Shown piece by piece: positions 17,650-17,910 of a stretch of 64,000 bases of DNA. Each line of letters opens with the position of its first letter. The first letter of the stretch is position 1. The stretch is from the NCBI GenBank assembly GCA_019747895.1, contig JAIEQF010000019.1, forward strand, positions 71,363 to 135,362. The letters are read 5' to 3'. Position numbers and translations under genes: made by a program. The notes under the pieces were generated by a model. That model was not told the origin of the DNA, did not search any database, and was given only the letters and a program-made list of their open reading frames with translations. This DNA comes from Chthoniobacterales bacterium (lineage in GTDB: Bacteria; Verrucomicrobiota; Verrucomicrobiia; Chthoniobacterales; UBA6821).

Positions 17650-17747
17650 AAGCAAGCTTCGTAAAACTGTTTTCGCATAAAGTTGAAAGGTTGAGCAGCT
17701 GTTGAGCGCCGCTAGCGCGGCTGTTGAGAAGAAACTATCCTTAGCAC

Positions 17748-17825
17748 TCGCTCGCTCCCGCGAGGCTCGCCTCTTCGGGGCTGCCTTCAGCGGTCAATCC
17801 GGCGGCTGCCACGCCGTGCGTATTA
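17748..17825 (+). repeat. GC-rich B-module, copy 2 of 5
   Basis: tcgctcgctcccgcgaggctcgcctcttcggggctgccttcagcggtcaatccggcggctgccacgccgtgcgtatta. It interrupts a 124-nt element that is uninterrupted at 49507-49630. Confidence 0.85.
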
Positions 17826-17835
17826 ACTCATCAAG

Positions 17836-17910
17836 CTCTCAACTCCTCAACAAAACCTTCGATATAAGATTTTATTTTCTTTTGTATCATCTGGTCTTCT
17901 AAACGAATAC
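17836..17910. repeat. 75-nt conserved element, copy 1 (copy 2 at 49557-49630)
   Basis: 7 differences in 75 nt between the copies. Lies immediately 3' of the secretin stop codon. Confidence 0.85.

What the first reader, a model, noticed from the sequence alone, without database searches (positions are those of the whole stretch)
17699..17910. 78-nt B-module: five same-strand copies, and a filled-versus-empty pair showing it inserts on its own
**Copies and orientation**
- B-modules lie at 7693-7770, 17748-17825, 20892-20969, 34056-34134 and 55689-55766.
- All are in the + orientation, although flanking genes are on either strand.
- Five of five copies on one strand is mildly surprising for a palindromic repeat.

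**Filled versus empty site**
- The 124-nt element at 49507-49630 is contiguous.
- Its counterpart at 17699-17910 is split after ...aaactatcctt by about 93 nt consisting of the B-module plus short flanks.
- This is a clean filled/empty comparison inside one window.

**Structure**
- The 5' part (tcgctcgctcccgcgaggctcgcc) is the most conserved.
- The 3' half keeps a short GC stem in every copy although the paired bases differ: ggcg/cgcc, gcgg/ccgc, cagc/gctg, ggtc/gacc.
- That hints at structural constraint.
Basis: seen in the sequence. Interest (0 to 1): 0.55.

Follow-up and report, generated by a model that had tools for sequence, protein, structure and literature searches.

The report
Hairpin-rich mobile repeat of Verrucomicrobia
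The "B-module" is a real, roughly 82-base DNA element built from small hairpins that has jumped into many intergenic sites in a whole group of soil and lake bacteria (Verrucomicrobiota); it has no inverted ends, makes no target duplication and matches no described family, and the enzyme that moves it is unknown.

Summary
**Observation: confirmed.**
- The window, from a Chthoniobacterales MAG, holds exactly five B copies, all on the + strand.
- The 17.7 kb and 49.5 kb loci differ by one clean 88-nt indel that contains B.

**What it is.**
- B is a discrete unit of 80-84 nt, G(C)AAC...GTAT(T/G).
- It has a conserved C-rich core of about 28 nt, followed by three hairpins (four in some subfamilies).
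- Related copies occur in many Verrucomicrobiota MAGs and metagenome contigs with 40-70% G+C.
- The stems covary strongly: about 90% of cells are paired against about 70% after shuffling, and 15 of 16 pairs show double changes. This held in two independent sets.

**Mobility.**
- B is present or absent in at least nine host contexts, including sites orthologous to the window.
- It has no inverted ends and no target duplication. Junctions are clean to within 1-3 nt, mostly after a T.
- It often sits inside or at the end of other palindromic repeats.

**Orientation.** Biased about 65:35 towards the G-rich strand. It is random relative to flanking genes.

**Searches that found nothing.** No Rfam match, no literature match, no adjacent transposase.

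**Best reading.** A non-autonomous mobile element moved in trans, probably as single-stranded DNA by an HUH/Y1-type enzyme, as with REPIN-RAYT or IS200/IS605. That last step is inferred. It is a new variant of a known kind.

The parts
7688..7769 (+). B copy 1 (GCAAT...CGTATT). Lies between the heptamer arms AGTTTGAG (7664-7686) and CTCAAACT (7818-7846).
   Evidence: 81.3 bits
17744..17824 (+). B copy 2. This is the 'filled' site; the whole indel against the 49.5 kb copy is 17743-17830 (88 nt).
   Evidence: 92.7 bits
20889..20968 (+). B copy 3, of the subfamily with the 3' hairpin GCGGTC-TTCC-GACC. Lies in the divergent region between the secretin gene and a membrane-protein gene.
   Evidence: 89.5 bits. 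Absent at the orthologous site in L241 and L242.
34051..34134 (+). B copy 4.
   Evidence: (84.5 bits)
55685..55765 (+). B copy 5, of the 'GCTCGG' type. Lies inside a larger repeat bounded by inverted ends: the left end (TAGAGCATTTT..., ~55592) and the inner stem GTTGTAGCCG (55611)/CGGCTACAAC (55783) are in the window; the outer right end (...AAAACGCTCTA) is seen in L089/L063, the window's being cut by the 55797 MITE. Downstream of transketolase.
   Evidence: 93.6 bits. Empty version of the host in L034 and L003.
17655..17742 (+). Left part of the GTTGAG-type host element that is interrupted by B copy 2.
   Evidence: The whole composite is absent in relative L240, whose secretin is 94% identical at protein level.
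17831..17912 (+). Right part of the same host element. It ends at the stop codon of the secretin gene.
49452..49630 (+). Uninterrupted ('empty') copy of the host element. The junction lies between 49550 and 49551.
23787..23853 (+). D12 hairpin module, empty here. Orthologous copies in L030 and L132 carry B inside it.
40300..40335 (+). AT-rich palindrome (AAAGAATTTTTTGATAAAAAAATTC), empty here. The same kind of site carries B in L125 and L155.
   Evidence: L125:5818 against window 40321/40323
21561..21613 (+). D6 module. It ends ...CTCGCGTCATCGAGTATTA, the same hairpin-plus-GTATT terminus as B. It is the 5' half of a longer repeat (D6+D12).
34135..34187 (+). D6 module joined head-to-tail to the GTATG end of B copy 4.
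55609..55661 (+).
7772..7798 (+). Terminator-like hairpin followed by a T run, directly after B copy 1. Context only, not part of B.

Best explanation
**What it is.** B is a small (80-84 nt) non-autonomous mobile DNA element that has persisted and diversified in Verrucomicrobiota.

- G(C)AAC or GAC.
- A C-rich core, TCGCTCGC(T/G)CCCGC(GA/TC)GGCTC. In the 'GA' type it folds into a hairpin, CTCGC-TCCC-GCGAG.
- Two short GC hairpins, mostly with three-base T-N-C loops.
- A linker, TC(N)ATCC.
- A 7-9 bp hairpin.
- The terminus CGTAT(T/G).

**Shown**
- It is a discrete unit that is present or absent at many sites.
- It has no terminal inverted repeats and no target duplication.
- It enters T-rich spots, often in the loop or at the end of other palindromic repeats.
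- Its hairpins are kept by compensatory change.
- Its orientation is biased relative to GC skew but not relative to genes.

**Inferred**
- It is cut out and pasted as a single strand by an enzyme supplied in trans. The most likely type is an HUH/Y1 enzyme of the IS200/IS605-TnpA or RAYT kind.
- That enzyme would read the subterminal hairpins and the conserved core.
- Only copies that keep these signals propagate. That would explain both the covariation and the subfamilies shared between genomes.
For: **Discrete unit**
- One clean 88-nt indel within the window.
- At least nine host contexts with filled and empty versions. Several are exact to the base: L204:899 against L223:8988, 'form C' copies against L121:6338, and L189:630 against L034:6874. 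L125:5818 against window 40321 also fits a clean insertion, with a few base differences in the flank beyond the junction.

**Gain at orthologous sites**
- L030 and L132 carry B at the site of window 23.8 kb, while the more distant L131 is empty there.
- L240 lacks the 17.7 kb composite.
- L241 and L242 lack the 20.9 kb copy.

**No inverted ends or duplication; preferred sites**
- Left flanks mostly end in T.
- Head-to-tail joins occur at the GTAT terminus of a resident element: B then D6 at 34134/34135, and D6 then B in L224, L148, L170 and L149.

**Structure**
- 88.9% of cells paired against 68.1% after shuffling, and 91.6% against 70.4% in the second set.
- 15 of 16 pairs show double changes in both sets, and the slid controls collapse.
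- The 5' hairpin covaries in divergent copies: CTTGC/GCAAG, CTCGT/ACGAG, GGGCG/CGCC.

**Orientation**
- 103:57 towards the G-rich strand after de-duplication, p = 3e-4.
- 33:26 and 27:26 relative to upstream and downstream genes.
- In the window, GC skew stays positive across minus-strand genes, so it tracks replication.

**Other**
- All annotated neighbours in the window are housekeeping genes.
- Lagging-strand coupling of IS200/IS605 transposition is described in PMC5027513 and PMC6006769. Long-lived, vertically inherited repeat-enzyme pairs are described in PMC3116915.
Against: **No enzyme partner found**
- No recurrent neighbouring gene.
- No transposase in the window.
- tblastn with from-memory IS200 TnpA and RayT sequences found nothing in 1.3 Mb of B-containing loci. 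This is a weak test.

**Poor fit to IS200/IS605 and REP**
- There is no strict 4-5 nt target as IS200/IS605 has, only T-richness.
- The commonest core variant (GCTCGG) breaks two central pairs of the 5' hairpin.
- B lacks the GTAG/CGTC tag and the inverted doublets of REPs.

**The folding strand is unsettled**
- Loops are G...A on the complement.
- The complement folds better in 142 of 162 copies by raw energy, and in 53 of 81 copies tested against shuffles, where the margin was modest.
- If the complement is the active strand, it sits mostly on the leading-strand template, the opposite of IS608.

**Limits of the data**
- Some paralogous 'insertions' could be gene conversion or deletion.
- The conservation of the core is partly ascertainment, because loci were fetched with that very pattern.
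- The covariation alignments were fitted to the model's structure.
Confidence: 0.5

Rival explanations
1. B is above all a functional structured RNA, either a small RNA or a cis element that stabilises or terminates transcripts. On this reading the hairpins are kept by selection on the RNA, and the dispersal is secondary.
For: - Covariation is strong.
- Loops on the complement are GGGA (a GNRA tetraloop) and GAA/GCA, which are common in RNAs. The complement folds better.
- In low-GC relatives the 3' hairpin is followed by TATGTTTT or TATTTTTT, which looks like an intrinsic terminator.
- Four of the five window copies lie just downstream of a same-strand gene.
Against: - Orientation relative to flanking genes is random: 33:26 upstream, 27:26 downstream, with 16 copies antisense to both neighbours.
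- There is no conserved promoter, because the flanks are unrelated.
- Copy density is about 1 per 13 kb.
- There is no Rfam match even at E <= 10.
- G-U pairs (65) are not clearly in excess over A-C pairs (49).
- The window copies are not called as terminators.
Confidence: 0.2
2. B is not mobile by itself. It is one optional module of larger mosaic repeats (like BIMEs or BOX elements), and it is gained or lost by homologous recombination, gene conversion or slippage between paralogous repeat copies.
For: - B is nearly always embedded in, or abutting, other repeat modules: D6/D12, heptamer palindromes, and the roughly 200-nt 'form C' block.
- The same D6-to-B junction (GAGTA|GCAAC) recurs in four loci. 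That could be one composite that was then copied.
- Empty sites often differ from filled ones by 1-3 bases.
Against: - B occurs in at least nine unrelated host sequences. Each needs at least one de novo entry with the same two ends.
- Some hosts are not repeats of the D6/D12 kind, for example L204/L223 and the AT-rich palindrome.
- The boundaries are the same, G(C)AAC...GTATK, in every context.
Confidence: 0.15
3. B is a host-selected chromosomal DNA site that works in a replication-oriented way, for example a binding or loading site for a nucleoid, topoisomerase or replication-restart protein on single-stranded DNA. It would be spread by whatever means and kept for that function.
For: - Orientation follows GC skew rather than genes.
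- The core is conserved across genomes of 40-70% G+C.
- E. coli REP/BIME elements bind gyrase, IHF and Pol I (PMC3333891 and the abstract of PMC2817692).
Against: - The bias is only about 65:35, far from the near-absolute polarity of KOPS or Chi-type signals.
- Copies are gained and lost between close relatives without conservation of position.
- No candidate binding protein is known.
Confidence: 0.1

Closest known systems
REP/REPIN elements with their RAYT (Y1 HUH) transposase
   Same: - Short, GC-rich, hairpin-forming intergenic repeats present in many copies.
- No gene of their own.
- Subfamilies within one genome.
- Long vertical persistence.
- Presumed mobilisation in trans by a single-copy enzyme.
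- A short tag next to a hairpin: B's complement reads AATAC followed by a hairpin.
   Different: - B has no GTAG or CGTC tag.
- It is not a single palindrome and does not occur as an inverted doublet.
- It has a core of about 28 nt plus three or four different hairpins.
- No RAYT was found.
- The same core is shared across many MAGs spanning 40-70% G+C, whereas REP sequences, from my own knowledge, generally differ between genera (not checked here).
IS200/IS605 family and its ORF-less derivatives (palindrome-associated transposable elements)
   Same: - No inverted ends and no target duplication.
- Subterminal hairpins on one strand.
- Asymmetric ends.
- Insertion next to a short motif.
- Head-to-tail joins.
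- Orientation bias linked to replication.
   Different: - The target is only T-rich, not a fixed tetra- or pentanucleotide.
- The 5' and 3' hairpins are alike (TCCC loop) only in some subfamilies.
- No autonomous copy with tnpA or tnpB was seen.
- The bias is weaker.
- The better-folding strand may sit on the 'wrong' template.
BOX elements of Streptococcus pneumoniae and BIMEs of E. coli (modular mosaic repeats)
   Same: - Built from modules that combine in different orders with other modules.
- Intergenic.
- Strongly structured.
   Different: - No sequence relation was seen.
- B keeps the same two ends in unrelated hosts, so it behaves as an insertion rather than a fixed part of one composite.
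- This comparison rests on my own knowledge of BOX elements and was not tested here.
Small dispersed repeats of heterocystous cyanobacteria (Elhai et al. 2008, cited from memory)
   Same: - Very small repeats found nested inside other repeats.
- Recognised by comparing filled and empty repeat copies.
- No duplication at the insertion site.
   Different: - Those repeats are 21-27 nt and lineage-specific.
- B is about 82 nt, with several covarying hairpins, and is shared across a much wider group.
Classical MITEs, such as the 170-nt element in this same window
   Same: - Non-autonomous.
- Intergenic.
- Insertions nested within other repeats.
   Different: - Classical MITEs have terminal inverted repeats and a target duplication. 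The window's 170-nt MITE shows both (about 20-nt ends, TA duplication).
- B has neither.

Membership tests
IS200/IS605-derived non-autonomous element | No terminal inverted repeats and no target-site duplication | tested here: met
   Filled/empty junctions in at least nine contexts show no duplication. The ends G(C)AAC and GTATK are not inverted copies of each other.
IS200/IS605-derived non-autonomous element | Similar subterminal hairpins at both ends, on the same strand | tested here: inconclusive
   The 5' hairpin CTCGC-TCCC-GCGAG and the 3' hairpin with a TCCC loop are alike in several subfamilies. However, the commonest core variant breaks the 5' hairpin, and the window's main subfamily has a TGCCAC loop at the 3' hairpin.
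IS200/IS605-derived non-autonomous element | Insertion 3' of a fixed tetra- or pentanucleotide target | tested here: not met
   Left flanks end in ATT, AAT, GTT, GTA, CAT, TTG and similar. They are T-rich, but there is no fixed word.
IS200/IS605-derived non-autonomous element | A cognate Y1 (HUH) transposase encoded in the same genome | not testable with these tools
   Only 64 kb of this genome is available, and its proteins other than the secretin could not be looked up. None was found in the window or by a weak tblastn over 1.3 Mb of loci.
IS200/IS605-derived non-autonomous element | Orientation bias relative to the direction of replication | tested here: inconclusive
   103:57 towards the G-rich strand, using local GC skew as a proxy. 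Origin and terminus are unknown, and so is which strand is the active one.
REP / REPIN | A 20-40 nt imperfect palindrome tagged by GTAG or CGTC | tested here: not met
   B is about 82 nt with several different hairpins. Its terminus is GTATT (AATAC on the complement), not GTAG or CGTC.
REP / REPIN | Pairs of units in inverted orientation that form one long hairpin | tested here: not met
   Window copies are single. The few adjacent opposite-strand pairs in other loci (L029, L008, L200, L178) join two different subfamilies.
Classical MITE | Terminal inverted repeats together with a target-site duplication | tested here: not met
   By contrast, the 170-nt MITE at 34189-34358 has both.
Any Rfam 15 RNA family | A covariance-model match | tested here: not met
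   At gathering thresholds the window gives only tRNA-Lys. Permissive scans of two B loci give nothing meaningful at E <= 10.
Intrinsic (Rho-independent) terminator | A GC-rich hairpin followed directly by a U run, in the sense of the upstream gene | tested here: inconclusive
   Many low-GC relatives have the 3' hairpin followed by TATGTTTT or TATTTTTT. The two window copies scanned (7.7 and 34 kb) are not called as terminators, and orientation relative to genes is random.

The most novel reading that the evidence does not exclude
B and its sibling D6 may be the DNA half of an undescribed, vertically inherited repeat-enzyme partnership spread through Verrucomicrobiota. It would be comparable to REPIN-RAYT, but with a different recognition logic: a conserved 28-nt core plus covarying hairpins, and a GTATT terminus reminiscent of the nick sites of rolling-circle Rep proteins. 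The enzyme could be of another class. Alternatively, B could be a structured RNA of the complementary strand that takes part in its own spread.
Probability: 0.2. Interest if true: 0.75.

Novelty: new variant of a known kind. Interest (0 to 1): 0.5.

Why it matters
- Small repeats that persist for very long periods inside bacterial lineages are known well only from REP/REPIN-RAYT in Proteobacteria. An independent, structurally different example in Verrucomicrobiota would show how general such repeat-host partnerships are. It would also give a handle for finding the enzyme.
- In practice, these repeats fill most intergenic regions of this genome, change gene ends (the C-terminus of the sulfotransferase at 17.6 kb) and break short-read assemblies.
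- The covariance model built here could be used to annotate them.

Tried and rejected
- **RNAalifold on a plain MAFFT alignment** found only an invariant 5' stem, because the hairpins were out of register. A hand-set structure and a covariance model were needed.
- **Rfam** at gathering and permissive thresholds gave nothing.
- **Literature**: a search for the core sequence, and for repeats in Verrucomicrobia, found nothing specific.
- **Partner gene by neighbourhood clustering** turned up only ABC transporters, a YkuD protein, and spurious ORFs across the repeat itself.
- **tblastn** with from-memory IS200 TnpA and RayT found only a chance hit in a shadow frame.
- **Phage and plasmid collections**: 2 hits in 2.9 million viral contigs and none in plasmids.
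- **Extending the window's genome by exact-protein look-up** failed for four proteins. Only the secretin is on record.
- **Deciding the folding strand from G-U against A-C counts** was inconclusive: 65 against 49.
- **A sense-strand 3'-UTR element** was rejected, because orientation relative to genes is random.
- **tRNA-like, sigma-70 or sigma-54 promoter, and coding readings of the core** were considered by eye and dropped for lack of any fit.

Full report
**1. The observation**

A profile search with all filters off and a covariance-model scan of every position on both strands find exactly these five. All are on the + strand and score 81-94 bits; the next best hit scores 10 bits.

The 17.7 kb and 49.5 kb loci align at about 90% identity over about 180 nt. 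They differ by one clean 88-nt indel, 17743-17830, that contains B. So the filled/empty pair is real. The insert has no target duplication and no inverted ends.

**2. Where the window comes from**

- The secretin at 17913-20651 is 100% identical to a protein of a Chthoniobacterales MAG (NCBI locus tag K2W97_04280, contig of 146,957 nt).
- The window is ordinary chromosome: catalase, LepA, signal peptidase, secretin, LptE, AccA, the ATP synthase operon, RNase PH, CarB, Icd, cytochrome bd, transketolase and RuvA. It holds no transposase.
- G+C is about 44%. GC skew is positive almost throughout, including over minus-strand genes. The + strand is therefore most likely the leading strand.

**3. 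B is a widespread family**

Besides chance hits in high-GC taxa, it returned many MAGs labelled Chthoniobacterales, Spartobacteria, Terrimicrobiaceae or Verrucomicrobiia.
- Viral contigs gave 2 hits and plasmids none.
- Caveat: loci were fetched with the core as bait, so its near-invariance among them is partly ascertainment. Secondary copies in the same loci do show diverged cores.

**4. Anatomy and structure**

- All forms share one plan. It runs: G(C)AAC or GAC; the core TCGCTCGC(T/G)CCCGC(GA/TC)GGCTC; hairpin H1 (GCCC(C)/GGG(G)C); hairpin H2 (4-5 bp, sometimes enlarged by a nested hairpin); the linker TC(N)ATCC or TTGCGTC; hairpin H3 (7-9 bp); and the tail GTAT(T/G) or GTGTT.
- A covariance model built from 12 copies found 77 copies in the MAG loci and 116 in the metagenome loci.
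- In the two sets, 88.9% and 91.6% of cells form pairs, against 68.1% and 70.4% after shuffling. In both, 15 of 16 pairs show changes on both sides, and sliding the partners by one to three columns collapses all measures.
- These alignments are fitted to the model, which favours the structure. Even so, H2 and H3 use four to five different pair types per position.
- The core forms a further hairpin (CTCGC-TCCC-GCGAG) in the 'GA' type. Divergent copies keep it through double changes, but the commonest 'TC' type breaks two central pairs.

**5. Which strand folds**

- G-U-type pairs (65) do not clearly exceed A-C-type pairs (49).
- However, 360 of 665 perfect hairpins have T...C loops (TTC, TCCC, TGC). 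On the complement these read GAA, GGGA and GCA.
- The complement folds better in 142 of 162 copies with RNA parameters and in 146 of 162 with DNA parameters.
- It still does so after correcting for composition: z = -1.50 against -1.11, better in 53 of 81 copies, p = 0.002.
This stays open.

**6. Mobility**

- A census that joined the two flanks of each copy and searched for them side by side found filled and empty versions in at least nine host contexts.
- In every context the unit is G(C)AAC...GTAT(T/G). There is no duplication, and junctions are clean to within 1-3 nt.
- Several are exact: GGTCGATT|GCGCAC in L204 against L223; the 'form C' host against L121; and L189 against L034. AAAGAAT|TTTTT in L125 against window 40321 also fits a clean insertion, though the flank beyond the junction differs by a few bases. 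The window's own 17.7 kb pair carries about 6-7 extra bases beyond the core unit.
- Left flanks mostly end in T.
- B often lies in the loop or at the end of other palindromic repeats.
- It joins head-to-tail with D6, a second module that ends in the same hairpin-plus-GTATT. Examples are window 34134/34135, and GAGTA|GCAAC in four loci.

Orthologous comparisons give the direction of change:

- Two relatives 90-93% identical to the window carry B inside the D12 module at the site of window 23.8 kb. The window and a more distant relative do not.
- A relative whose secretin is 94% identical lacks the whole composite at 17.7 kb.
- Two further relatives lack the 20.9 kb copy.

B has therefore moved within the last few per cent of sequence divergence.

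**7. Orientation**

- The ratio is 79:43 with at least 3 kb of context and 47:24 with at least 5 kb.
- In low-GC loci, where long ORFs are reliable, the upstream gene is co-oriented in 33 against 26 copies and the downstream gene in 27 against 26. Sixteen copies are antisense to both neighbours.
- The bias is thus moderate, and it follows replication-type skew rather than transcription. Five of five in the window fits a bias of about 65-70%.

**8. Interpretation**

*Shown:* B is a discrete, structured, non-coding unit that is gained or lost at many sites without a duplication. It is kept in subfamilies shared between genomes.

*Inferred:* B is mobilised in trans, most likely as single-stranded DNA by an HUH/Y1-type enzyme as in IS200/IS605 or REP-RAYT (PMC5027513, PMC6006769, PMC3333891, PMC3116915). 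That would account for the hairpins, the asymmetric ends, the absence of a duplication, the joins at GTAT termini, the entry into hairpin loops and the replication-linked bias.

*Against the specific mechanism:*
- No partner enzyme was found.
- The target is not a fixed word.
- The commonest core variant cannot form the 5' hairpin.
- The better-folding strand would lie mostly on the leading-strand template.

*Rivals:*
- The RNA reading is weakened by random orientation relative to genes and by the lack of any conserved promoter.
- The recombination-only reading is weakened by identical ends in unrelated hosts.

**9. Comparison and novelty**

- B fails the defining tests for a classical MITE (inverted ends and a duplication), for REP/REPIN (a tagged single palindrome in inverted doublets) and for every Rfam family.
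- It shares the no-duplication, no-inverted-end, hairpin logic of IS200/IS605 derivatives, but not their fixed target.
- I found no description of it in the literature.
- I rate it a new variant of a known kind: small, structured, non-autonomous mobile DNA. It stands out for the breadth of its distribution and the strength of its covariation.

Noticed in passing
window 47021-47404 (-) and 48921-49340 (-): Two genes of the '23S rRNA intervening sequence protein' family (PF05635, bAvd-like four-helix bundle) flank the isocitrate dehydrogenase gene. The first sits between inverted heptamer-repeat arms (46970-47019 with 47369-47414); the second between two same-orientation GTTGAG-type repeats (48903-48951 with 49502-49550). 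They look like cassettes carried inside the repeat elements.
   Followed up: partly
window 34189-34358 and 55797-55966: A 170-nt classical MITE, with two copies 95% identical. It has inverted ends of about 20 nt (TATAGTCAAATTACTTAGAA) and a TA duplication. Each copy is inserted into another repeat: the D6/D12 junction in one case, and the right end of the 55.6 kb composite in the other.
   Followed up: partly
window, many intergenic regions (e.g. 2888-2995, 24728-24838, 28241-28415, 6592-6749, 40274-40486, 52000-52193): Long palindromic intergenic elements whose arms are tandem heptamers. The heptamer differs from locus to locus (CAAAGAA, GTTGAGA, CCTGTAA, AGTTTGAG), often around an AT-rich central palindrome. 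One lies between atpE and atpF, inside the ATP synthase operon.
   Followed up: no
window 21561-21680, 23787-23853, 34135-34187 + 34358-34424, 55609-55661: D6 and D12 are the two halves of one longer repeat that is widespread in low-GC relatives. In the window it also lies only on the + strand. The 21.56 kb copy lies inside the long ORF 20896-21918, which has no Pfam match and starts within B copy 3. The true gene limits there are doubtful.
   Followed up: partly
window 17615-17649 against L240: Compared with a close relative, the repeat composite at 17.7 kb starts within the last codons of the sulfotransferase-like gene and replaces its C-terminal residues. It ends exactly at the stop codon of the convergent secretin gene.
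   Followed up: partly
L155, L170, L195, L120, L139, L168, L240 (contig ends): Short-read contigs of related populations often end inside B or inside the heptamer arms. These repeats therefore fragment metagenome assemblies and will be under-counted in MAGs.
   Followed up: no
L058, L066, L076, L109, L117, L128, L140, L190 (H2 region): In one group of high-GC MAGs, hairpin H2 of B carries a nested extra hairpin (CCCCGACCTCGGAGTCGGGG TAAAC). This is a second level of insertion or expansion inside B itself.
   Followed up: no
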